From contig JAMHVM010000125.1 in assembly GCA_035911475.1 (NCBI GenBank), positions 18,504-82,503 on the forward strand: a stretch of DNA of 64,000 bases, read 5' to 3'. The stretch is from Lysobacterales bacterium (lineage in GTDB: Bacteria; Pseudomonadota; Gammaproteobacteria; Xanthomonadales; UBA2363). The position numbers and the translations under genes were made by a program. This document shows, piece after piece, positions 6,594-19,363 of this stretch. Positions within the stretch are counted from its first letter, which is position 1, and each line of letters begins with the position of its first letter. The notes beneath the pieces were generated by a model. The model ran no database searches. It saw nothing but the letters and a program-made list of their open reading frames with translations, and was not told where the DNA came from.

Positions 6594-6919
6594 AACGCGT
6601 ATTGCGATTGCTCGCGGTGCCCTGATCCCGCGCTTGATATTGCCGGGGCCGGCCTCATGCAGCGAACAACCGGCAGGCGAGCTACATGACCTGCGGTTGA
6701 AGATTGCGATCGGAATATGGGTATGCATGTCCAAGGGCTGCCACATTCGGTCGACATCATGCGCGCTGCGGTCGATTCACTGGATACGGGCCGAACTTTG
6801 GACGGTCAAGGCCCGTGGCAGCAGGTAAGCCAGTCCGCCACCACCCATGAAGTGGACGACGGGCCTGCTGACATTCAAACCCGGCACTCCCTCCCTGGCC
6901 GGGTTCTTCTCTCTTCGAG

Positions 6920-10953: not shown

Positions 10954-11316
10954 TTACCGCGGCAAGCTGAGCTCATCCACCGATTCCGCGGGGAAGTGGT
11001 GATGGTGGCGAAGGACCCGCCGCTGGGCCTGGAAGCGGCTCCCGAATCGATCCACGCCATCCTGACGCAGTGCCGGGGCGTGCTCGCGCAGGTAGTCGGC
11101 CAGCGCCGCCTCGTCGCGCAGCCGGTAGCGCACACACCAGCCGCGATGTCCGGGCGTATGCGGTTCCAGCAGCTCGATCCGCTGCGCGTCGATGAAGCCC
11201 GGCAAGGCCAGGATCTGCCGGATGTGCGCATGCAGCCAGTGCTCGTAGGCCTCGGCGATCGCTTCCTCGACCAGCACGGTCACTTCATATTCGATCACGG
11301 TCACCACCACGCTCAC
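10954..11316 (-). CDS. Small DUF4286-like (dimeric alpha-beta barrel) protein
   Basis: YEVT...WLHAHIRQILALPGFIDA...YRLRDEAALADYLREHAPALRQDG; GTG start overlaps the upstream stop (GTGA). Confidence 0.8.
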   Translation of the reverse strand: MSVVVTVIEYEVTVLVEEAIAEAYEHWLHAHIRQILALPGFIDAQRIELLEPHTPGHRGWCVRYRLRDEAALADYLREHAPALRQDGVDRFGSRFQAQRRVLRHHHHFPAESVDELSLPR

Positions 11317-12368
11317 ATCGCCCACAGGCCGATCAGGAACGCCAGCACGGCGGCGAACGACAGCAGGACCAGATAGACCGTGCCGATGACCGCGTACTTG
11401 ATCAGGGTCATCACCCAGCCCTGGTCATAGACGCGCTTCTGGGTCAGCAGCAGGTTCAACGGTATCCATACCGCCAGGGCGACCATCAGCCAGCCCAGGC
11501 CGGTCGACAGCCAGCCCGGCCCGAGCCAGCCGGCGAGCAGGCTGAGCAGGCAGATCAGGATCAGGGTCAGCGCGATGAAGCTGTGGCTGTGCAGCGCGAC
11601 CAGCAGGTGATGCAGGTACAGCTTGCGCTTGAACAGGTAGGCCAGCTTCAGCAGCAGGGCGAAGATCGGCAGGGTGCAGATCAGCACCTGTGGTGCCACC
11701 GAGAACATGGCGGTGAACAGGGCATTGGGGTCGTTGCCGACGCGCTGGGCGTTGGCCTTGAGCCGCTCGACCGCGGCATCGAAGCCGGGTTTCAGACGCT
11801 CCGGCAACCAGGGCAGCAACTGCGACGGCGCGCGACCACGGTCCTCACCCAGGTTGATCTGGATCGCCTGGTTGCCCGTACTGGGTGCCGTCTCGGCGCC
11901 GGTGTCGCTGGACAACAGCGGCGGGGCCAGGGCATCGGCGATTACCGCCCGACGTGTCTGCTCGGGCAGCCAGGAGACGATGCGTTCGATGCGCGGCTCG
12001 TCTTCCTTTGCCGGCGTCATTTCGGCCAGTTCGCGGCTGATGTCGATGCGCGCGGCCAGCTGCACCACCACGAACAGGATGAAGATCAGGATCAGGAACA
12101 GGCGGACCGGGGTGACATAGCGGATGCGACGCCCGGCGATATACTCGCGGGTGAGGAAGCCCGGTCGCAGCAGCAGCGGCGTCAGCGTCCGCCAGATGCG
12201 GCCGTCGTAGTTGAGGGCGGTATCGAAGAAGTCGGCGATCCAGCCCGAGAGCGGACGCACCAGACCCTTCACCGGTTGTCCGCAGGCATGGCAGTGCGCG
12301 CCGAGCAGCGGTGTGCGGCAGTTGCCGCAGACGGCTTCGTCCTGGCGCGTTGTTGCCTGATCGGTCAT
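11313..12368 (-). CDS. DUF3667 domain membrane protein
   Basis: N-terminal CxNC...CxxCGQ zinc ribbon, LRPGFLTREYIAGRRIRYVTPVRLFL signature, multiple TM segments. Confidence 0.88.
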   Translation of the reverse strand: MTDQATTRQDEAVCGNCRTPLLGAHCHACGQPVKGLVRPLSGWIADFFDTALNYDGRIWRTLTPLLLRPGFLTREYIAGRRIRYVTPVRLFLILIFILFVVVQLAARIDISRELAEMTPAKEDEPRIERIVSWLPEQTRRAVIADALAPPLLSSDTGAETAPSTGNQAIQINLGEDRGRAPSQLLPWLPERLKPGFDAAVERLKANAQRVGNDPNALFTAMFSVAPQVLICTLPIFALLLKLAYLFKRKLYLHHLLVALHSHSFIALTLILICLLSLLAGWLGPGWLSTGLGWLMVALAVWIPLNLLLTQKRVYDQGWVMTLIKYAVIGTVYLVLLSFAAVLAFLIGLWAM

Positions 12369-12445
12369 CGTCCATTCTCCACCGTGCGAGTGTAGCGCCC
12401 CGCGTCGGCTGTCCCGGCGTGCCCCGTCCCTTGACTGCAGCCGTC

Positions 12446-13816
12446 ATGCCCGATTTCCCGCGCATCCGCCATGAACTGCGTGCCACCCTGGTGCTGGCCT
12501 TGCCGCTGGTCGGCGGGCAGTTGTGCGCGGTCGGCCTCAACGTGGTGGAGATCTCGCTCGCCGGCCATGTCGGTGGTCAGACACTGGCTGCGGTGGGACT
12601 GGGCGCGGCAATCTGGTCGGTGGTGATCCTGGTGGCGCTGGGACTGATGCTGGCGGTGCCGCCCTCGGTGGCGCAGCTGGTTGGTGCCGGTCGTCAGCAG
12701 GACATCGCGCCGCTGTTCCGGCAGGCCTTGTGGCTGGCCTTGCTGGTGGGCATCGGCATGGGCGTCGCGATCCAGGCGACACCCTGGTTGCTGGCGCGGG
12801 TCGGCAGCGATTCCGAGGTGGTGCCGGTGACGCTGGCCTTCCTGACCCCGCTGGCCTGGGGCGCGCCCGCGCAGATCCTGTTCTTTTTCGCACGCGGCCT
12901 CAGCGAAGGCCTGGGGCTGACCCGGCCGACGCTGTGGTTCAGTGCGCTGGGCGTGGTGCTGCTGGCGCCGCTGGGCTACGCCCTGATGATGGGTGTGGGT
13001 GGCTTGCCGCGATGGGGCGCGTTCGGGCTGGGGCTGGCCTACGCCATCGTGTTGTGGGTGCAGGCGGTCAGTCTGCTGCTCTATCTGGCCTGGCATCGCA
13101 ACTATCGTCACCTGCACCTGTTTGCTCGCTTCGAATGGCCGCGCTGGCGGCCGATCGCGGCGTTGCTGACGATCGCGCTGCCAATGGGCGTGGCGGTGTG
13201 GATGGAAGGCGGCCTGTTCGTCGCCACCGCAGTGCTGATGAGCAAGCTGGGCGCCACTGCGATGGCCGCGCATCCGGTCGCGATCAACGTCGCTTCGGTG
13301 ACCTTCATGGTGCCCATGGGCATCGCGCTGGCGATCACCATCCGGGTTGGCCAGGCAGTCGGCCGTGATGACGTCAGCGGCGTGCGCTACGCCGGCTTCA
13401 CCGGCATTGGGCTGGTGCTGATCACCCAGATCGTGCTGGCCAGTGTGCTGGCGCTGGCCGCGGCACCCATCGCCGCGCTGTACACCGACGACCGCGTGGT
13501 GATCACCGCCGCCGCGCACTTGTTGCTGTTCGCCGCGGTGTTCCAGTTGTCCGACGGCATCCAGGTCGCCAGCAACGGCGCCCTGCGCGGGCTCAAGGAC
13601 ACCATCATGCCGGCGCTGATCACGGCGACCTCGTACTGGGCCATCGGCATGAGCATCGGCTGGTGGCTGGCCTTCCCGCGCGGCATGGGTGCCAGCGGCC
13701 TGTGGCTCGGGTTGATTGCCGGCCTAAGCGCGGCCGCGATCGGCCTGTTCTCGCGCTTTGTCTGGCGCGCTCGCCGTGCCAACTGGAAGCGGCTGCGGCA
13801 CGGCGCCAGCGTGTAG
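12446..13816 (+). CDS. MATE family efflux transporter (NorM-like)
   Basis: About 12 TM segments, LAAVGLG, WMEGGLF, DGIQVASNGALRGLKDT motifs; start trimmed to ATG 12446. Confidence 0.92.
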   Translation: MPDFPRIRHELRATLVLALPLVGGQLCAVGLNVVEISLAGHVGGQTLAAVGLGAAIWSVVILVALGLMLAVPPSVAQLVGAGRQQDIAPLFRQALWLALLVGIGMGVAIQATPWLLARVGSDSEVVPVTLAFLTPLAWGAPAQILFFFARGLSEGLGLTRPTLWFSALGVVLLAPLGYALMMGVGGLPRWGAFGLGLAYAIVLWVQAVSLLLYLAWHRNYRHLHLFARFEWPRWRPIAALLTIALPMGVAVWMEGGLFVATAVLMSKLGATAMAAHPVAINVASVTFMVPMGIALAITIRVGQAVGRDDVSGVRYAGFTGIGLVLITQIVLASVLALAAAPIAALYTDDRVVITAAAHLLLFAAVFQLSDGIQVASNGALRGLKDTIMPALITATSYWAIGMSIGWWLAFPRGMGASGLWLGLIAGLSAAAIGLFSRFVWRARRANWKRLRHGASV

Positions 13817-13884
13817 TCATCCTGGGGCCGCCTGGAGTGGCGGTTGCCGAGTCGGCCTTGGGACGGACGAGGCCGCGCCCGGGT

Positions 13885-16647
13885 TCAGGGTCCGCCGGTG
13901 GTGCCGGCGAGCAACTGCAGGTCGCCGATCACCTGTTCCAGCGTGCCGGGATCGCTGGCGGTGTCCTGAAGCGTGTCGCGGACACCTTCGAGCAATGCTT
14001 GCGCAGCCTGGTGGTCGCCCGCGCGCAGCAGCAGGCGGCCACGCAATGCGTCGACGCGTTCGGCCTGGCCCGAACGAGCCTGACTGGCAGCCATGGCTTC
14101 GGTGGAGAGGTTCTGGAGCAAGGCCAGTGCTTCCTGGTATTGGCCCAGTTCGCCGAGAAATTCGGCGCGGAAGAACCGGAAGCTCTGCGCCGCGGCGTTG
14201 TCCGCGCCATGAAGTCGGGTCAGCCCGGTTTCGGCGGCGGCGACGTTGGCCAGGCCCGACTCCCGGTCACCGCACTCGAACTGTTTGGCGCCGAGATTGC
14301 CTTGTTCGATGAAGGTGCCCTGTTGCTCGTCGCCACGCGTGCGTCGAATCCGCTCGTAGGCGCTGGCTCCGGCTTGCAGCGCCGGCTCGCACTGCTTGAG
14401 CAGGTGGTGGACGCGCGACAGCGAGCTCAGTGCGGTGATGGTCTGGAAGTTGTCCGGGCCCAGCCGTCGTTCCAGGTCTTCGACGCTGTCGCGGGAAAAC
14501 ACCAGCGCTTCGTCCAGTCGTTCCTGCGCGATCAGGCTGCGCGCGAGCATGGCGTACAGCTGACCACGACGCCGTTCGCGGATCGAGGGCGAGTAACCCG
14601 TGTCGTCCAGCAACTGCCGAAGCAGGGCTTCGCCACCGCGCGGGTCGCCGGTACGGATTCGCGACTCGGAAACCATGATGTCTACGAACAGACGCAGGCT
14701 CTCGTCGATGGCCGTGGCGTCCAGCATCAGCTCGCGCGCGCTTTCGTACAGCGGTAGCGCCTGCGCGTACTGGAATTGCTGGCCATGCCAGGTGGCGCGT
14801 CCGACCAATGCCAGCAGCGCGGTCTCGGCGTTGCTGCGTCGCAGTTCCTCCGCATGGGAATCGGACTGGTCGAGCAGGTTCTGCGCATCGTCGTAGCGGT
14901 TCATCCAGGCCAGAATCACCGCGCGCAGGTACTGGTTGCGCAAGGTGCGTGCGTCGCCGTTGCCAACCGCGTGCCGGTAGTGCTCGGCGGCCTGCGTGTA
15001 CGCCGCCAGCGCACCGTCATTGTTGTTGAGGGCGCGGAAGGCATCCGCCAGCGACGCGTAGACGCCGGCGCGCAACAGCGGGTCGTCGGCGAAGCGGTCC
15101 TGCAGGCCGGTCATGGCCTGATTCAGCAGCACGGTCAATCCCGGATCGTGGCTGATGTCGGAACGCTCGGGGTTGGTCTGAGCGATGACATCGTCGCTGA
15201 GAAAACGCAGGATCGCGGCCGCGCGGCGCGACTCCTGTTCGGCCTGGTCACGGGCCTGATCGGCCTGCCAGTACAGCCAGGCGCTGGAGACGCAGGCGAG
15301 CAGCAGTGTGGCCATGGTCGTGATCAGCCAGGGGCGCCGTTCGCGCATGCGCTCTAGCCGGCGTTGCAGGTGCGCCGTGCTCTGGGCGGTGGCGGCCGCG
15401 CGCTGGTGATCGCTATGCCGTTGCTCGAGCTGGCGCAGTTGGCTGACCAGCTCGGCGACGCTGGCGTAGCGCTGTGCCGGATCGCCGTCGGTGGCGCGGG
15501 CGATGTCACGCACCAGAAGCTCGTCGTCGATGTCGCGCTCCCAGCCCGGCGCCATCGGCCGGCGGAAGTCGCCAACCAGGAACTGGTAGAGCAGCACGCC
15601 GAGCGCGTAGACATCGCTCTGCACGGTCGGTGGCTGGCCGGCAACCAGTTCCGGAGCGAGGTACAGCGGTGTGCCTACATCTCCGCTGGTCTCCATGGCC
15701 GTGGTCAGGGTCATGCCCAGGCTGGTGATACCCAGGTCGGCCAGTCGCCCCGGTTCCAGCAGGCGGCTGCTGCCGAAGTCGGTGAGTGCCACGCGCCAGC
15801 CGTCGACCGGGCCCGGCTGTATCAGCACGTTGGCCGGCTTGATGTCCTTGTGCAGGACGCCGATCCCGTGTGCGGCGGCGACGGCATCGGCGATGCGGTT
15901 GAACAGGCCCAGACGCTGCTCGCGCGACCAGCTGGCAACGCCAGCCTCCTGCAGCGCCCAGTCGAGCAGGCTGGGGCCGCCGTATTCGCATTCGACGAAG
16001 TAAGGTTCCTCGGCGAAATTCCAGTCCAGCAGACGGATGTAGTGCTCGCTGCCGGGCAGGGCGTCGCTGAGCAGACGCGACACCGTCACTTCGCGCTTCA
16101 GGGCGTACAGACGATCGGCATCCAGGGCGAACTTGAACACCCGCGCCTGCCTTGTCTTGCCGTGGTGGGCGAGCCAGACCTCGCTGTTGAGGGTCTTGTC
16201 CAGTGCCCGATCCAGCACGAACTGGCTGCGTCCGGGTACCGGCTGGCCTACATCGAGGTTCAGCGAGCTGAGCGGCGTCTGCCGGCCGACACTAACTCGC
16301 TCCAGCGCACCGGTGAAGCGATAGCCGACCCGAGGCAGAGTAATGATGCGGTGCTCGCCGACGCTGCCAAAGGCCCTGCGTAGCTTGCCGATCGCCGTGG
16401 CGAGCACGTGTTCAACGGTGACCCGTCCGGCCCAGACCTCGTCGAGCAATTCCTGCTTGGTGACGACCTCGCCCGCGTGGCGCAGCAGCATGGTCAGGAC
16501 CTGCAGCGGCTTGCGCTCCAGCACCACCGGCTTGCCGCTTTCGCTCAGCGTGAAGCGGGCCTCGTCGAACTCGAAGCCGTCGAAGCGCCAGCGATACAGG
16601 CCTTGGTCGTCCCTGCTGCCCGCAGCTTCCGGGCCACCCCACTGCAT
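13885..16647 (-). CDS. OmpR/ToxR-type winged-helix DNA-binding domain fused to Ser/Thr kinase, one TM helix and periplasmic TPR-like repeats
   Basis: N-terminal WRFDGFEFDE...LERKPLQVLTMLL...VTKQELLDEVW...ITLPRVGYRF (wHTH); HKDIKPANV, LTDFG, GTPLYLAPE, SDVYALG (kinase); TM WLITTMATLLLACVSSAWLYW; helical repeats after. Confidence 0.9.
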   Translation of the reverse strand: MQWGGPEAAGSRDDQGLYRWRFDGFEFDEARFTLSESGKPVVLERKPLQVLTMLLRHAGEVVTKQELLDEVWAGRVTVEHVLATAIGKLRRAFGSVGEHRIITLPRVGYRFTGALERVSVGRQTPLSSLNLDVGQPVPGRSQFVLDRALDKTLNSEVWLAHHGKTRQARVFKFALDADRLYALKREVTVSRLLSDALPGSEHYIRLLDWNFAEEPYFVECEYGGPSLLDWALQEAGVASWSREQRLGLFNRIADAVAAAHGIGVLHKDIKPANVLIQPGPVDGWRVALTDFGSSRLLEPGRLADLGITSLGMTLTTAMETSGDVGTPLYLAPELVAGQPPTVQSDVYALGVLLYQFLVGDFRRPMAPGWERDIDDELLVRDIARATDGDPAQRYASVAELVSQLRQLEQRHSDHQRAAATAQSTAHLQRRLERMRERRPWLITTMATLLLACVSSAWLYWQADQARDQAEQESRRAAAILRFLSDDVIAQTNPERSDISHDPGLTVLLNQAMTGLQDRFADDPLLRAGVYASLADAFRALNNNDGALAAYTQAAEHYRHAVGNGDARTLRNQYLRAVILAWMNRYDDAQNLLDQSDSHAEELRRSNAETALLALVGRATWHGQQFQYAQALPLYESARELMLDATAIDESLRLFVDIMVSESRIRTGDPRGGEALLRQLLDDTGYSPSIRERRRGQLYAMLARSLIAQERLDEALVFSRDSVEDLERRLGPDNFQTITALSSLSRVHHLLKQCEPALQAGASAYERIRRTRGDEQQGTFIEQGNLGAKQFECGDRESGLANVAAAETGLTRLHGADNAAAQSFRFFRAEFLGELGQYQEALALLQNLSTEAMAASQARSGQAERVDALRGRLLLRAGDHQAAQALLEGVRDTLQDTASDPGTLEQVIGDLQLLAGTTGGP

Positions 16648-16869
16648 CCGTTCTCTCCCGACGGTGTGGCGGCAAGCTTAGTGGTGAGTGCCGCGCAATG
16701 TGCGCCAATACACACTTGTTTACAGGCGAGGTCCGCAATTGCATGAATCAACTGCAGGTTTTCGATTTGAAGAGTTCTTGAAAACCGCGTGAGGACTGCG
16801 CTGCCCCGATGCCGGATGCTGCATCGGGTTGTTGAACGTGATCGTCGATGCAGCGACGACGGAGGGGAG

Positions 16870-17100
16870 ATGGACAGGGGATACCAGGCGCATGCGCGCA
16901 GCCACGGCGACAACGAGTTCGTCTGGCTGGACAGGATCGCAGCCGGTGGCGGTGGCGGCGGTGATAGCAGTGTCGGTGTCGATGCCGCGCACGACTCGTC
17001 GCCGAAAGCCGATCCGGCCATCGTCCGAGCCGGGTGTGCGATTCGATCATCGCGCCCGCACCTGGCCGAGCCGGTGCGGCCCGGTGCGGCGAGCGCCTGA
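16870..17100 (+). CDS. Small Gly/Ser-rich hypothetical protein (76 aa)
   Basis: Strong RBS GGAGGGGAG immediately before ATG 16870; divergent from the wHTH-kinase; no recognisable family. Confidence 0.4.
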   Translation: MDRGYQAHARSHGDNEFVWLDRIAAGGGGGGDSSVGVDAAHDSSPKADPAIVRAGCAIRSSRPHLAEPVRPGAASA

Positions 17101-17105
17101 CCGTC

Positions 17106-17429
17106 GTGCGCTGGCTTCGTGGCACCGTGGTGCGGGTGGCTCTGCCGAACGAGCCCGGCTTGATCCACACCGATGGCCGCATGGTGTCGTACGCGCTGGA
17201 CAGCCGTTGTGCCGACAACGACCCGCTGCGCCAGGACATGGCCGTCGAGTTCACCGTGCTCGCGGACGGATCGGCTGTCGGCGTCCACAGCCTGGTCGCT
17301 GACAGTCCGATCGGCCTCGCGATTGCGGCGTCGTCGGCAGCCAGCGTCGTCGATCGGGGGCGGGGCGGCGACGATTCCGGTGAAGAGACGGCGTCTGGTC
17401 CCGACTGGCATCCAGTACGGCGCCCGTGA
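17106..17429 (+). CDS. Hypothetical protein with a cold-shock/OB-fold-like N-terminal domain
   Basis: GTG 5 nt after the previous stop; RGTVVRV...GLIHTDGRMVSY...LRQDMAVEFTV...AVGVHSL resembles the cold-shock strand pattern. Confidence 0.45.
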   Translation: MRWLRGTVVRVALPNEPGLIHTDGRMVSYALDSRCADNDPLRQDMAVEFTVLADGSAVGVHSLVADSPIGLAIAASSAASVVDRGRGGDDSGEETASGPDWHPVRRP

Positions 17430-17500
17430 CCTGTGGCGCTTGGCAGGCCGCTGACCGCCGCCTATCCTGAACGCCTCTGTTTTCCACCCTTGGACGATTC

Positions 17501-19363
17501 ATGAGCGAAAAACGCCCCGGCCTGATTCGCCGGACGCTGGTTGGCGGCTGGCGGGTACTGGATTTCACCCGTCGCTTCATCCTGACCGTGCTGTTCCTGA
17601 TCGCGATCATCTGGCTGATCTCGGCCGCGCTGCGGCCCGGCCTGCAGCTTTCCGAGCGCACCACGCTGGTGCTGCAACCGGTGGGCGTGCTGGTCGAGCA
17701 GTACACGATGTCGCCATCGGACCGGGTGATGGCCTCGTTGACCGCCGACGATGTGCCCGAGGTGCAGCTGCGCGACCTGTTGCGCGCGCTGGAGGCCGCC
17801 GGGTCCGACAGCCGCATCGAGCGGGTGGTGCTGCGGCTGGACCAGTTCGCCGGCGGCGGCCTGGCCAGCCTGCGCGATGTCGCCACTGCCATCGACCGTC
17901 TGCGCGCCGGCGGCAAGGAAGTGATCGCCTTCGGTGACGCCTACAGCCAGGGCGGCTATTACCTGGCCAGTCGCACCGGCCGCGTCTACATGGATCCGAT
18001 GGGCGCGGCGCTGCTCGAAGGTTTCGGTCGCTATCGCTTCTACTACGCCGAAACCCTGGCCAGGCTGGGCGTGAAGGCGCATCTGTTCCGGGTCGGCGAA
18101 TACAAGTCGGCCGGTGAGCCCTACATCCGCAGCGATGCCTCGCCGGAAGCGCGCGAGGCCGACCTCTACTGGATGGGTGATCTCTGGCAACGCTTCCTCG
18201 CCGACATCGCCCAGGCACGCCAGGTCACGCCGGCACAGCTTCAGCAGTCGATCGACGAACTGCCGACGCGGCTGCGGGCTGCCGGCAGCGACCTGGCGCA
18301 GCTGACCCTGGACATGGGCCTGGTCGATCAGCTGATGCCGTGGCACGAACTCGAGCGCGACCTGCTCGCGCGCGGCGTCGCCAACGACGAGGAGACCTCG
18401 TTCCGGCAGATCGGCATGGACGATTTCCTCACCGTGATCGACCGCGAACGCGGCCCAGTCACCAGCACGGCGCCGGTCGCGGTGATCGTGGCCCAGGGCG
18501 AGATCGTGCCCGGATCGATGGGTCGCGGCGTGATCGCCGGCGAGGCGGTGTCGGACCTGCTGCGTCAGGCCCGCCAGGACGACGACATCAAGGCCGTGGT
18601 GCTGCGCGTGGATTCGCCCGGCGGCCAAGTCTTCCCGTCCGAACAGGTCCGCCGCGAAAGCATGCTGCTGCGCCAGGCCGGCAAGAGCGTGGTGATCTCG
18701 ATGGGTGATGTCGCGGCGTCCGGCGGCTATCTGATCAGCACCGACGCCGATCGCATCATTGCCGACCCGAGCACGATCACCGGTTCGATCGGCGTGTTCG
18801 GGCTGTGGATGGATGCCAGCGAAGGCGTCGGCAAGCTCGGCCTGGGCACCGACGGCGTCGCCACCACCTGGCTGGCCGGCGCCTTCGACCCGACCCGACC
18901 GTTCGACGAGCGCCTGGGTCAACTGCTGCAGGCCAGCGTCGACAAGGTCTATCAGGACTTCATCGCCCAGGTCGCGACGGCCAGAAGGACCACGCCGGAA
19001 GTCATCGACGTGGTCGCGCGTGGCCGCGTCTGGAGCGGCGCGCAGGCGCTGGAGCGCGGGCTGGTCGATTCGCTCGGCGGTCTCGAAGAAGCGCTGACGC
19101 AGGCGCGCGAGCTGGCCGGTCTCCCGGCCGATGCGCGCTTCGCCTACATCGACCCGCCATCGACGTTCATGGATCGACTGCTGACCGGCTTCGGCGATTC
19201 GGCCATGATCCGCCTCGGTGTGCGTAACGGCTGGTTGCTGCCTTCGGGCTGGGTGCCGCCGCAGGCGGTCGATGAACTCACCCGTATGCAGCGGCTGTTC
19301 AACAACCCGGCACCGCCGCAACAACGCGTCTACATGCACTGCGAGTGCGGGCCGGGCTCATGA
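17501..19363 (+). CDS. sppA: Signal peptide peptidase SppA (protease IV, 67K type)
   Basis: N-terminal TM, tandem S49 domains, YKSAGE Lys, VDSPGG, AASGGYLIS Ser, TGSIGVFG. Confidence 0.95.
   Translation: MSEKRPGLIRRTLVGGWRVLDFTRRFILTVLFLIAIIWLISAALRPGLQLSERTTLVLQPVGVLVEQYTMSPSDRVMASLTADDVPEVQLRDLLRALEAAGSDSRIERVVLRLDQFAGGGLASLRDVATAIDRLRAGGKEVIAFGDAYSQGGYYLASRTGRVYMDPMGAALLEGFGRYRFYYAETLARLGVKAHLFRVGEYKSAGEPYIRSDASPEAREADLYWMGDLWQRFLADIAQARQVTPAQLQQSIDELPTRLRAAGSDLAQLTLDMGLVDQLMPWHELERDLLARGVANDEETSFRQIGMDDFLTVIDRERGPVTSTAPVAVIVAQGEIVPGSMGRGVIAGEAVSDLLRQARQDDDIKAVVLRVDSPGGQVFPSEQVRRESMLLRQAGKSVVISMGDVAASGGYLISTDADRIIADPSTITGSIGVFGLWMDASEGVGKLGLGTDGVATTWLAGAFDPTRPFDERLGQLLQASVDKVYQDFIAQVATARRTTPEVIDVVARGRVWSGAQALERGLVDSLGGLEEALTQARELAGLPADARFAYIDPPSTFMDRLLTGFGDSAMIRLGVRNGWLLPSGWVPPQAVDELTRMQRLFNNPAPPQQRVYMHCECGPGS

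What the first reader, a model, noticed from the sequence alone, without database searches (positions are those of the whole stretch)
13885..16647. One-component winged-helix / Ser-Thr kinase / TM / TPR regulator
Seen: an OmpR/ToxR-type wHTH fused directly to a Hanks kinase (HKD, DFG, APE intact; Gly-rich loop degenerate, LDKTLNSEVW), then one TM and periplasmic TPRs. Its post-TM region resembles that of the kinase at 54783..57728 (AEQESRRAAAILRFLSD vs AENQARRAQAVQAFLTD). Inference: where the second locus uses a separate ECF sigma as output, this protein carries its own DNA-binding output, giving a membrane-tethered, phosphorylation-switched transcription factor. I know of no characterised example of this architecture.
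Basis: partly seen in the sequence, partly recalled or inferred. Interest (0 to 1): 0.62.

Follow-up and report, generated by a model that had tools for sequence, protein, structure and literature searches.

The report
Membrane transcription factor with built-in kinase
One 920-residue membrane protein joins a DNA-binding domain, a eukaryote-type protein kinase and an outside repeat sensor. It belongs to a large, unstudied bacterial family, and its probable DNA docking site lies just upstream of its own gene, so the whole signalling route can be tested directly.

Summary
ORF 13885..16647 (-) encodes wHTH (Trans_reg_C), a Hanks kinase, one TM helix and a TPR solenoid.

All catalytic residues (K172, E186, H-K-D268, N273, DFG290, APE333) are essentially invariant in 105 relatives. 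Only the Gly-rich loop is degenerate.

The architecture is not rare:
- at least 460 clusters at 50% identity carry the wHTH-kinase junction;
- the genome holds 5 such fusions among its 43 Hanks-kinase loci;
- 27 of its 30 ECF43-type sigma genes lie beside non-fused kinase loci, and none lies near a fusion.

New here is a probable operator at 16767..16796 (-), GTCCTCA-N7-TTCAAGAACTCTTCAA, with three TCA cores 11 bp apart.
- It is unique in the 4.74-Mb genome.
- It is conserved upstream of orthologues sharing 41-81% identity.
- A blind pattern search of 301 genomes found it once in each of six genomes, always just upstream of such a gene.
- Across 106 loci, repeat type tracks recognition-helix type.

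Best reading: a ToxR/CadC-like membrane-anchored transcription factor whose embedded kinase links periplasmic sensing to DNA binding. The kinase step is inferred, not shown. I found no characterised member. The closest studied system is PknS-EcfK.

The parts
13885..16647 (-). Whole gene: wHTH - Hanks kinase - TM - TPR protein (920 aa, P0001)
   Evidence: ORF and translation. Pfam domains. AF2 model with mean pLDDT 84.3.
16312..16590 (-). OmpR/ToxR-type winged helix-turn-helix, residues 20-112
   Evidence: Trans_reg_C E 6.5e-15. Partial NCBIfam hits to HilA/EilA, CadC and PhoB DNA-binding regions. Invariant W72, T77, K88, L89, R90, G108, Y109, R110.
16372..16419 (-). Recognition helix, residues 77-92 (TVEHVLATAIGKLRRA)
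   Evidence: The helix type co-varies with the upstream repeat type across 106 loci.
16231..16311 (-). Conserved wHTH-to-kinase linker, residues 113-139
   Evidence: R117, P138 and R140 are invariant. A related linker precedes the same kinase subtype in cyclase-fused relatives.
15433..16230 (-). Hanks-type kinase domain, residues 140-405 (non-RD, HKD)
   Evidence: Pfam Pkinase. PDB sequence matches to Stk1, StkP and PknA. Foldseek TM-scores of 0.66-0.75 to Stk1, PknA, PknI, PknB and PknF. Catalytic residues are conserved in 104-105 of 105 relatives.
16174..16203 (-). Degenerate Gly-rich loop, LDKTLNSEVW, residues 149-158
   Evidence: The three canonical glycine positions hold D150, T152 and S155. 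Most of the family reads x-S/T-x-x-S-E-V-W, and only about six members keep GxGxxG.
15649..15780 (-). Long activation segment, DFG290 to APE333, with conserved T308, T313 and T326
   Evidence: Disordered in the AF2 model, residues 293-325. T308 in 98/105, T313 in 96/105 and T326 in 104/105 relatives.
15265..15333 (-). Single transmembrane helix, residues 439-461
   Evidence: It is the only strongly hydrophobic 19-mer, and an Arg-rich stretch lies on its N-terminal side. It forms one continuous helix, 440-491, in the model.
13888..15264 (-). Periplasmic helical stalk and TPR solenoid, residues 462-920 (presumed sensor)
   Evidence: TPR_12, TPR_19 and TPR_10 hits. All-helical with high pLDDT. 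C753 and C792 are conserved in 53 of 55 relatives.
16767..16796 (-). Probable operator: GTCCTCACGCGGTTTTCAAGAACTCTTCAA, three (C/T)TCA cores exactly 11 bp apart, 120-149 bp upstream of the ATG, on the kinase coding strand
   Evidence: Exact coordinates. Unique in the genome. Conserved in orthologues and relatives of 41-81% identity. A blind pattern search found it in 6 of 301 genomes, each time upstream of a wHTH-kinase gene.
16709..16726 (-). Second conserved upstream block, CCTGTAAACAAGTGTGTA (promoter or 5' leader element, function unknown)
   Evidence: Conserved in the 81% and 77% orthologues only.
17106..17429 (+). Divergent small gene (107 aa): OB/cold-shock-like beta-barrel followed by a helix; candidate co-regulated neighbour
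   Evidence: Syntenic in L034 and L035. No Pfam hit. Its N-terminal domain is homologous to divergent neighbours of distant family members. AF2 model and weak Foldseek hits to cold-shock and OB domains.
54783..57728 (-). Paralogous kinase-TM-TPR protein without wHTH (comparison locus)
   Evidence: Full Pkinase match. 30% identity over 439 aa to P0001.
54147..54680 (+). ECF43-type sigma factor gene next to the second kinase (convergent orientation)
   Evidence: PF07638 E 9.8e-35. It reads NTTA where EcfP has STTA in place of the usual DAED motif (translation; motif as described in PMC8999054).

Best explanation
The gene encodes a membrane-anchored, one-polypeptide signalling pathway.

Topology: the N-terminal OmpR/ToxR-type winged helix and the Hanks kinase domain face the cytoplasm. 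A single helix crosses the membrane. A stalk plus TPR solenoid sits in the periplasm as the sensor.

DNA binding: the winged helix binds three 11-bp-phased direct repeats, (C/T)TCA cores at 16767..16796, that lie 120-149 bp upstream of its own start codon and point the same way as the gene. Head-to-tail repeats need two or three protomers side by side, so DNA binding should depend on oligomerisation in the membrane, as with ToxR and CadC. The most conserved consequence would be control of its own promoter. The divergent neighbour (here the small OB-fold gene at 17106..17429) may also be controlled.

Kinase: the kinase domain is probably catalytically competent, because every catalytic residue is conserved. 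It is non-RD and has an atypical nucleotide lid. I infer that periplasmic input changes kinase-domain pairing and trans-autophosphorylation. Candidate targets are the long conserved activation segment (T308, T313, T326), the linker or the wHTH. That in turn would set the arrangement or affinity of the fused DNA-binding heads. This is the fused counterpart of the PknS-EcfK and PknT-EcfP pathways, where a homologous kinase phosphorylates a separate ECF43 sigma factor.

Shown here: the architecture, the conservation, and the coupling between operator and gene. Inferred: DNA binding itself, kinase activity, and the direction of control.
For: Architecture and topology.

Kinase:
- The fold is complete.
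- In 105 relatives of 34-100% identity, K172, E186, H266, D268, K270, N273, D290, G292, T326, P332, E333 and R393 are conserved in 104-105.

Operator:
- Of 102 upstream regions, 22 have a tandem repeat (>=8 of 9 matches) at period 10 and 24 at period 11. Every other period from 5 to 20 gives 1-8. In a 25-locus subset, shuffles gave about 1 per period.
- 77 of 106 loci fall into one of six repeat classes, each with its own recognition-helix type. For the five two-unit repeat patterns, every hit is on the gene's coding strand, with none on the opposite strand and none in coding controls.
- In the window's helix clade, the only 6-mers shared by all seven upstream regions are TCCTCA and TTCAAG, at fixed spacing.
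- The site is unique in the 4.74-Mb genome.
- A blind search of 301 genomes of the same order found the composite pattern once in each of six genomes, with zero hits for the reversed control. In all six it lies about 90-200 bp upstream of, and co-oriented with, a wHTH-kinase gene.

Output swap:
- 27 of 30 ECF43-type sigma genes lie within 3 kb of a non-fused kinase locus, and none lies near the five fusions.
- The same kinase subtype is fused to a class III cyclase domain in a Phycisphaerales MAG.

Precedent for a kinase acting directly on its transcription output: PknS phosphorylates EcfK (PMC13147305) and PknT phosphorylates EcfP (PMC8999054).
Against:
- The Gly-rich loop has lost all three canonical glycines here and in most of the family, so ATP binding or turnover may be weak or unusual.
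- The operator-to-helix correlation is partly confounded by shared ancestry within clades.
- No sigma-70-like promoter was detected near the site, so which promoter is controlled is unknown.
- The strict site occurs only once in the genome. Any wider regulon is therefore unsupported.
- Only one PP2C_2-family phosphatase hit is in the genome, and it is unlinked.
- Three of the four paralogues in the same genome show no comparable tandem repeat; C169 carries a GGTAACG/GATAACG-type one and C140 only a diverged variant.
Confidence: 0.6

Rival explanations
1. Scaffold or pseudokinase reading. The protein is still a membrane-tethered transcription factor, but the kinase domain no longer transfers phosphate. 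It acts only as a ligand-controlled dimerisation and spacer module that brings the winged helices into register on the repeats.
For: The Gly-rich loop is degenerate here (D150, T152, S155) and in about 95% of the family. The Pfam match misses the first 44 profile positions. The swappable N-terminal outputs, wHTH or class III cyclase, both work as dimers, which is established knowledge for both families. There is only one PP2C_2 hit in the genome.
Against: The beta3 Lys, alphaC Glu, catalytic Asp and Asn, DFG Asp and APE Glu are all kept in 104-105 of 105 members over 34-100% identity. That is hard to explain without selection for catalysis. Conserved Thr residues lie in the activation segment.
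Confidence: 0.2
2. DNA-activated kinase reading (YabT-like). The winged helix recruits the kinase to a specific DNA site, and DNA binding switches the kinase on towards other substrates. Transcription control is secondary or absent.
For: B. subtilis YabT is a transmembrane Hanks kinase that needs a DNA-binding motif for activation (PMC3708118, listed). The catalytic residues here are conserved.
Against: The DNA-binding module is a sequence-specific OmpR-type wHTH with a clade-specific tandem operator. That operator always lies in the promoter region of, and is co-oriented with, the protein's own gene. This geometry is typical of transcription activators, not of a general DNA sensor. There is only one site per genome.
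Confidence: 0.08
3. Release by proteolysis. The protein is an inactive membrane precursor. A signal triggers cleavage near the membrane, which frees a soluble wHTH-kinase fragment that then binds the operator.
For: Cleavage-dependent activation has been reported for CadC (PMC11484849, title and abstract listed). An SppA-type S49 peptidase gene (17501..19363) is syntenic in the close orthologue L034.
Against: No cleavage motif or dedicated site-2 protease is evident. SppA synteny could be checked only in the one close orthologue whose contig reaches that side, and other clades show different neighbours. The juxtamembrane helix is continuous with the TM helix in the model.
Confidence: 0.07
4. 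The conserved repeats are not this protein's site. They would belong to another regulator, or to the promoter of the neighbouring gene, and travel with the locus by synteny alone.
For: No binding was tested. Close orthologues share further conserved blocks, at 16709..16726 and at TAAGCTT.
Against: Neighbouring genes differ between clades, yet the repeat array stays next to the wHTH-kinase gene and co-oriented with it. Repeat type changes together with recognition-helix type. The 10-11 bp period is the hallmark of OmpR-family sites. All 6 blind pattern hits lie upstream of such genes.
Confidence: 0.05

Closest known systems
ToxR / CadC / TcpP-type transmembrane transcription regulators (membrane-integrated one-component systems)
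   Same: An N-terminal cytoplasmic OmpR-type wHTH, one TM helix and a periplasmic sensor domain. The target site lies close to the regulator's own locus. Direct-repeat operators imply oligomer-dependent binding. The best partial NCBIfam wHTH hits are to HilA/EilA and CadC.
   Different: A complete Hanks kinase domain of about 270 residues sits between the wHTH and the membrane. ToxR-family members have only a short linker and no phosphotransfer chemistry. The sensor here is a TPR solenoid of about 400 residues.
PknS-EcfK (Xanthomonas citri) and PknT-EcfP (Vibrio parahaemolyticus): transmembrane Hanks kinases that phosphorylate ECF43 sigma factors
   Same: PknS has the same cytoplasmic kinase - TM - periplasmic TPR layout (PMC13147305). 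The window's own ECF-linked kinase, which has that layout, is 30% identical to P0001 from the kinase through the post-TM stalk. In both systems the kinase acts directly on a dedicated transcription output.
   Different: Here the output is a wHTH fused to the kinase N-terminus instead of a separate sigma factor. The kinase is non-RD and has a degenerate Gly-loop. No ECF sigma gene is nearby.
OmpR/PhoB-family response regulators and their pho-box or F/C-box operators
   Same: The Trans_reg_C fold, and tandem direct repeats spaced one helical turn apart.
   Different: There is no receiver domain and no histidine kinase partner. The protein is membrane-tethered.
YabT of Bacillus subtilis (transmembrane Hanks kinase with a DNA-binding motif)
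   Same: A Hanks kinase, DNA binding and a membrane anchor in one polypeptide (PMC3708118).
   Different: YabT has no wHTH, no extracellular sensor and no sequence-specific operator. In YabT, DNA activates the kinase rather than being a regulated target.
EmbR / AfsR (SARP-type wHTH regulators phosphorylated by Hanks kinases PknH / AfsK)
   Same: An OmpR-like wHTH output under Ser/Thr-kinase control, with direct-repeat operators.
   Different: Those kinases and regulators are separate proteins. Those regulators carry BTAD, FHA or NB-ARC modules (from my own knowledge), and none of these was detected here.

Membership tests
Hanks-type (eukaryote-like) Ser/Thr protein kinases | Bilobal kinase fold | tested here: met
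   Foldseek matches the full kinase domains of Stk1, PknA, PknI, PknB and PknF over about 290 columns, TM-score 0.66-0.75. Pfam Pkinase E 2.8e-20.
Hanks-type (eukaryote-like) Ser/Thr protein kinases | Catalytic residues: beta3 Lys, alphaC Glu, HxD Asp, Asn, DFG Asp, APE Glu | tested here: met
   K172, E186, D268, N273, D290 and E333 are present and conserved in 104-105 of 105 relatives. The kinase is non-RD, reading HKD.
Hanks-type (eukaryote-like) Ser/Thr protein kinases | Gly-rich loop GxGxxGxV | tested here: not met
   The loop reads L-D-K-T-L-N-S-E-V-W. All three glycine positions are replaced, as in most of the family.
Hanks-type (eukaryote-like) Ser/Thr protein kinases | Phosphotransfer activity | not testable with these tools
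   This needs an in vitro autophosphorylation assay.
ToxR/CadC-like transmembrane transcription regulators | N-terminal cytoplasmic OmpR-type wHTH | tested here: met
   Trans_reg_C, residues 38-111, E 6.5e-15. A positively charged stretch lies before the TM helix.
ToxR/CadC-like transmembrane transcription regulators | Single TM helix followed by a periplasmic sensor domain | tested here: met
   One hydrophobic segment, 439-461. C-terminal TPR solenoid. The topology is inferred, not measured.
ToxR/CadC-like transmembrane transcription regulators | wHTH joined to the membrane by a short linker only, with signalling free of phosphorylation | tested here: not met
   A full kinase domain, residues 140-405, lies between the wHTH and the TM helix.
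ToxR/CadC-like transmembrane transcription regulators | Sequence-specific binding to promoter repeats | tested here: inconclusive
   The comparative evidence for a cognate operator is strong, but no binding assay was done.
ECF43-associated receptor kinases (PknS/PknT type) | Homologous kinase-TM-extracytoplasmic sensor module | tested here: met
   30% identity over 439 aa to the window's ECF-linked kinase, E 4e-27. PknS has the same layout.
ECF43-associated receptor kinases (PknS/PknT type) | Adjacent ECF43-type sigma factor gene as substrate | tested here: not met
   The nearest PF07638 gene is 37 kb away. None lies near any of the five fusions, whereas 27 of 30 lie near non-fused kinase loci.
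OmpR/PhoB response regulators | N-terminal receiver domain with a phospho-Asp site | tested here: not met
   There is no Response_reg hit. The wHTH starts at about residue 20.
SARP / AfsR / EmbR regulators | BTAD domain following the wHTH | tested here: not met
   No BTAD, FHA or NB-ARC hit at E <= 0.01.

The most novel reading that the evidence does not exclude
The HKD-type kinase of this family may be a general transmembrane transducer for dimer-dependent outputs fused to its N-terminus. The output is a winged helix here and a class III nucleotide cyclase in Planctomycetota relatives. In the wHTH version the kinase's main substrate would be its own polypeptide, either the activation segment or the DNA-binding head. 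That would make a bacterial receptor kinase that is itself the transcription factor: a third basic design of transmembrane gene control, beside two-component systems and ToxR-like receptors, with a readable helix-to-operator code across hundreds of lineages.
Probability: 0.3. Interest if true: 0.8.

Novelty: new variant of a known kind. Interest (0 to 1): 0.62.

Why it matters
If this reading is right, it is a compact signalling design that nobody has studied: sensor, kinase and transcription factor in one membrane protein.

It is widespread. At least 460 clusters at 50% identity carry the junction. The family is found mainly in Lysobacterales-type Gammaproteobacteria and also in some Betaproteobacteria (Derxia, Rubrivivax) and in many unassigned metagenome contigs.

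Each lineage carries its probable operator right beside the gene, and the operator changes with the recognition helix. That gives a ready-made set of orthogonal sensor/promoter pairs and a natural data set for a wHTH recognition code.

It also offers a clean test of what a Hanks kinase contributes when its transcriptional output is covalently attached, and of whether a kinase without a Gly-rich loop is active.

In this genome it completes a striking picture: about 43 receptor kinases, each with a dedicated output, which is either an ECF43 sigma or a fused wHTH.

Tried and rejected
- Literature: five searches for the architecture found no paper describing a wHTH + Hanks kinase + TM + TPR protein. 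A sixth search found the PknS/EcfK and PknT/EcfP work.
- Shared motif among the five paralogues of this genome: none is obvious. C169 has its own GGTAACG/GATAACG repeat. C140 has a diverged GTCCTCA...GTTCG-N5-GTTCG. C143 and C120 show inverted repeats instead.
- Regulon search: the strict site occurs once in the genome. Three looser matches (C58, C103, C142) were not followed up.
- Promoter and terminator scan of 16600-17200: nothing found.
- Rfam scan of the intergenic region: nothing found.
- Pfam on the small divergent gene: no family.
- One conserved partner gene for the whole family: rejected. Divergent neighbours vary: TIG, LamG, OmpA-like, beta-helix, lipoproteins and an OB-domain membrane protein.
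- Pseudokinase by the usual K/D/D criteria: rejected, because all three are present.
Full report
**1. The observation**

The minus-strand ORF 13885..16647 is real and encodes 920 residues.

Pfam finds three kinds of domain:
- Trans_reg_C at 38-111, E 6.5e-15.
- Pkinase at 183-362, E 2.8e-20. The match starts only at profile position 45.
- Several TPR families between 529 and 896.

The best partial NCBIfam hits for the N-terminus are HilA/EilA, CadC and PhoB DNA-binding regions. There is one strongly hydrophobic segment, 439-461, preceded by RRLERMRERR. This fits an N-in topology with the TPR part in the periplasm.

The AlphaFold2 model has mean pLDDT 84.3. It shows a wHTH, a bilobal kinase with a disordered activation segment (293-325), a juxtamembrane helix running into a long TM/stalk helix (440-491), and an all-helical solenoid.

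Foldseek aligns about 290 columns to the full kinase domains of Stk1, PknA, PknI, PknB and PknF, with TM-scores of 0.66-0.75. HKD, DFG and APE are present, and the Gly-loop reads LDKTLNSEVW.

The likeness to the kinase at 54783..57728 is part of a continuous 30% identity over 439 residues, running from the kinase through the TM helix into the stalk (E 4e-27).

**2. Is the kinase alive?**

In 56 relatives, and then in 105 relatives of 34-100% identity, these residues are conserved in 104-105 sequences:
- the beta3 lysine (K172) and the alphaC glutamate (E186);
- H266, D268, K270 and N273;
- D290 and G292;
- T326, P332, E333 and R393.

K267 makes the whole family non-RD.

The Gly-rich loop is the exception. 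Most members read x-S/T-x-x-S-E-V-W, and only about six keep GxGxxG. In this protein all three glycine positions are replaced (D150, T152, S155).

By the usual Lys/Asp/Asp criteria this is not a pseudokinase. The missing nucleotide lid still makes activity an open question. Conserved threonines (T308, T313, T326) sit in an unusually long activation segment.

**3. How common is it?**

A word-indexed search returned more than 4,000 full-length relatives with the same Pfam set. Named sources include Luteimonas, Pseudoxanthomonas, Arenimonas, Dokdonella, Stenotrophomonas and Abyssibacter, and the names are only generic.

An exhaustive search used residues 1-210, which span the wHTH-kinase junction. 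It found 460 representatives of 50%-identity clusters at E <= 1e-30, almost all aligned in one piece across the junction.

Genome records add Rhodanobacter, Steroidobacteraceae, Rudaea, Derxia and Rubrivivax.

The window's own genome has five full-length fusions.

**4. The operator**

I treated that as a lead and tested it independently.

*Period of the repeats.* Upstream regions of paralogues and relatives showed tandem direct repeats. Of 102 upstream regions, 22 have a repeat with >=8 of 9 matches at period 10 and 24 at period 11. Every other period from 5 to 20 gives 1-8. In a 25-locus subset, shuffles gave about 1 per period.

*Clade specificity.* The repeat unit differs between clades and tracks the recognition helix:

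| Repeat | Loci | Recognition helix |
|---|---|---|
| TTCAAG-N5-TTCAA | 7 of 7 | TV(E/D)HVLATA(I/V)GKLR |
| GGAAGGATT repeats | 6 of 6 | VT(E/D)GVL(A/T)K(C/S)V.KLR |
| TCTAAAGAAC repeats | 37 of 37 | VV(D/E)(G/A)SL(A/T)TA(V/I)SKLR |
| TAACG-N6-TAACG | 16 | mostly TV(D/E)(N/K)VL(A/P)NA..KLR |

For the five two-unit repeat patterns, every hit is on the coding strand of the kinase gene, with none on the opposite strand and none in coding-region controls.

*This window.* The site is GTCCTCACGCGGTTTTCAAGAACTCTTCAA at 16767..16796 (-), with three TCA cores exactly 11 bp apart.
- It is conserved in the 81% and 77% orthologues inside otherwise diverging intergenic DNA.
- It is also conserved in relatives of only 41-48% identity. 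There, TCCTCA and TTCAAG are the only hexamers shared by all seven upstream regions, against none in 300 shuffles.
- The strict pattern occurs once in the 4.74-Mb genome.

*Blind test.* I searched 301 genomes of the same order for TCCTCA-N7-TTCAAGnAnnnTTCAA. It occurs once in each of six genomes, and the reversed control gives zero hits. In all six it lies about 90-200 bp upstream of, and co-oriented with, a wHTH-kinase gene. The four new ones are 61-63% identical to P0001 over residues 14-418.

I regard the coupling of site and gene as established. Binding of the site by the wHTH is strongly implied but not shown.

**5. What is regulated?**

The constant feature is that the array lies close to the kinase gene and points the same way. 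The median distance from site to start codon is 13-127 bp, depending on the clade. Autoregulation is therefore the most conserved inference.

The divergent neighbour varies between clades: secreted TIG-domain, LamG, OmpA-like and beta-helix proteins, and lipoproteins.

Here the neighbour is a 107-aa protein at 17106..17429:
- It has no Pfam family.
- It is syntenic in the close orthologues.
- Its roughly 62-residue N-terminal domain is homologous to the N-terminus of 270-300-aa proteins, which carry several hydrophobic C-terminal stretches (by eye) and sit divergent from distant family members.
- It models as a five-stranded beta-barrel plus a helix, with weak similarity to cold-shock and OB domains.

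No sigma-70 consensus promoter was detected. That is compatible with an activator-dependent promoter but proves nothing. By eye, the last repeat (TTCAAA), a 17-nt spacer and ATTCAT could form a weak promoter facing the kinase gene. This is speculation.

**6. Context in the genome**

The genome has 43 Hanks-kinase loci and 30 PF07638 sigma genes. 27 of the 30 sigma genes lie within 3 kb of a kinase-domain hit. None lies near any of the five wHTH fusions.

The characterised relatives of the sigma-linked type are:
- X. citri PknS, with a kinase - TM - periplasmic TPR layout, which directly phosphorylates the ECF43 sigma EcfK (PMC13147305);
- V. parahaemolyticus PknT-EcfP (PMC8999054).

The window's sigma factor reads NTTA where EcfP has STTA (translation; motif as described).

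The same kinase subtype (HKD, GWERDIDDELL, conserved pre-kinase linker, 45-47% identity from residue 134) also follows a class III cyclase domain in a Phycisphaerales MAG, and a cyclase-like region in a deltaproteobacterial MAG. Both have a canonical GEGGFG loop. The N-terminal output is therefore modular. Both kinds of output work as dimers, which is general knowledge of those families.

**7. Mechanism**

*Most likely (about 0.6).* A ToxR/CadC-like membrane-tethered activator binds a three-unit, 11-bp-phased operator as an oligomer. Periplasmic TPR input is passed on through pairing and trans-autophosphorylation of the embedded kinase.

*Rivals.*
- The kinase is a catalytically silent dimerisation scaffold (0.2).
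- The protein is a DNA-activated kinase like YabT (0.08).
- It is activated by proteolytic release (0.07).
- The repeats belong to another factor (0.05).

**8. Novelty**

I found no paper describing this architecture. Databases name it only generically.

Three earlier notes of this scan reached similar readings on homologues in other genomes. I re-derived the operator evidence independently.

I class it as a new variant of known kinds: a ToxR-like receptor combined with an ECF43-type receptor kinase. It is well defined, widespread and directly testable, but its chemistry is untested.

Noticed in passing
whole genome G000 (window = C125:18504-82503); window 54147-57728: The genome holds 43 Hanks-kinase loci and 30 PF07638 (ECF43-type) sigma genes. 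27 of the 30 sigma genes lie within 3 kb of a kinase-domain hit. That is a very large set of sigma/receptor-kinase pairs for a 4.7-Mb genome. There is only one PP2C_2 phosphatase hit (C88). The window's sigma (54147..54680) reads NTTA where EcfP has STTA.
   Followed up: partly
window 17106-17429 (+): A small divergent gene (107 aa) with no Pfam family. It models as an OB/cold-shock-like five-stranded barrel plus a helix. Its N-terminal domain recurs as the N-terminus of 270-300-aa proteins, with several hydrophobic C-terminal stretches by eye, encoded divergently from distant wHTH-kinase genes (L063, L066, L070, L071, L073, L075, L077, L100). It may be a recurrent partner or target.
   Followed up: partly
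L032:4332-9080 (Phycisphaerales MAG); L030:4923-8861 (deltaproteobacterial MAG): The same HKD kinase subtype, with the same pre-kinase linker, follows a class III nucleotide cyclase domain (PF00211, E 2.9e-8 in L032). It precedes TM + WD40 in L032 and TM + TPR in L030. These versions keep a canonical GEGGFG loop.
   Followed up: partly
window 14272-14274 and 14389-14391 (codons of C792 and C753): Two cysteines in the periplasmic TPR domain are conserved in 53 of 55 relatives. They may form a disulfide, which recalls the periplasmic disulfide of CadC. I could not measure their distance in the model.
   Followed up: no
window 16709-16726 and 16674-16680 (-): Two further upstream blocks, CCTGTAAACAAGTGTGTA and TAAGCTT, are conserved only among the close orthologues (81% and 77%). 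They could be a promoter, a leader or a second factor's site.
   Followed up: no
G000:C140 about 6860-6900 (L002 upstream): The paralogue with a nearly identical recognition helix (TVEHVLATAISKLRKA) has a diverged array, GTCCTCA-N8-GTTCGCGCCTGTTCG. This may be a case of operator drift after duplication.
   Followed up: no
G000:C143 (L004) and C120 (L005) upstream regions: Two other paralogues have inverted repeats upstream instead of a tandem array: TTATACGCAAT...ATTGCGTATAA and GATCGCAAA...TTTGCGATC. These are probably operators of the divergent neighbouring regulators.
   Followed up: no
window 10954-19363: The gene order DUF4286 / DUF3667 / MatE / wHTH-kinase / small gene / SppA (S49 peptidase) is covered between them by the two close orthologue contigs: L035 for the DUF4286-DUF3667-MatE side, L034 for the small-gene-SppA side.
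   Followed up: partly
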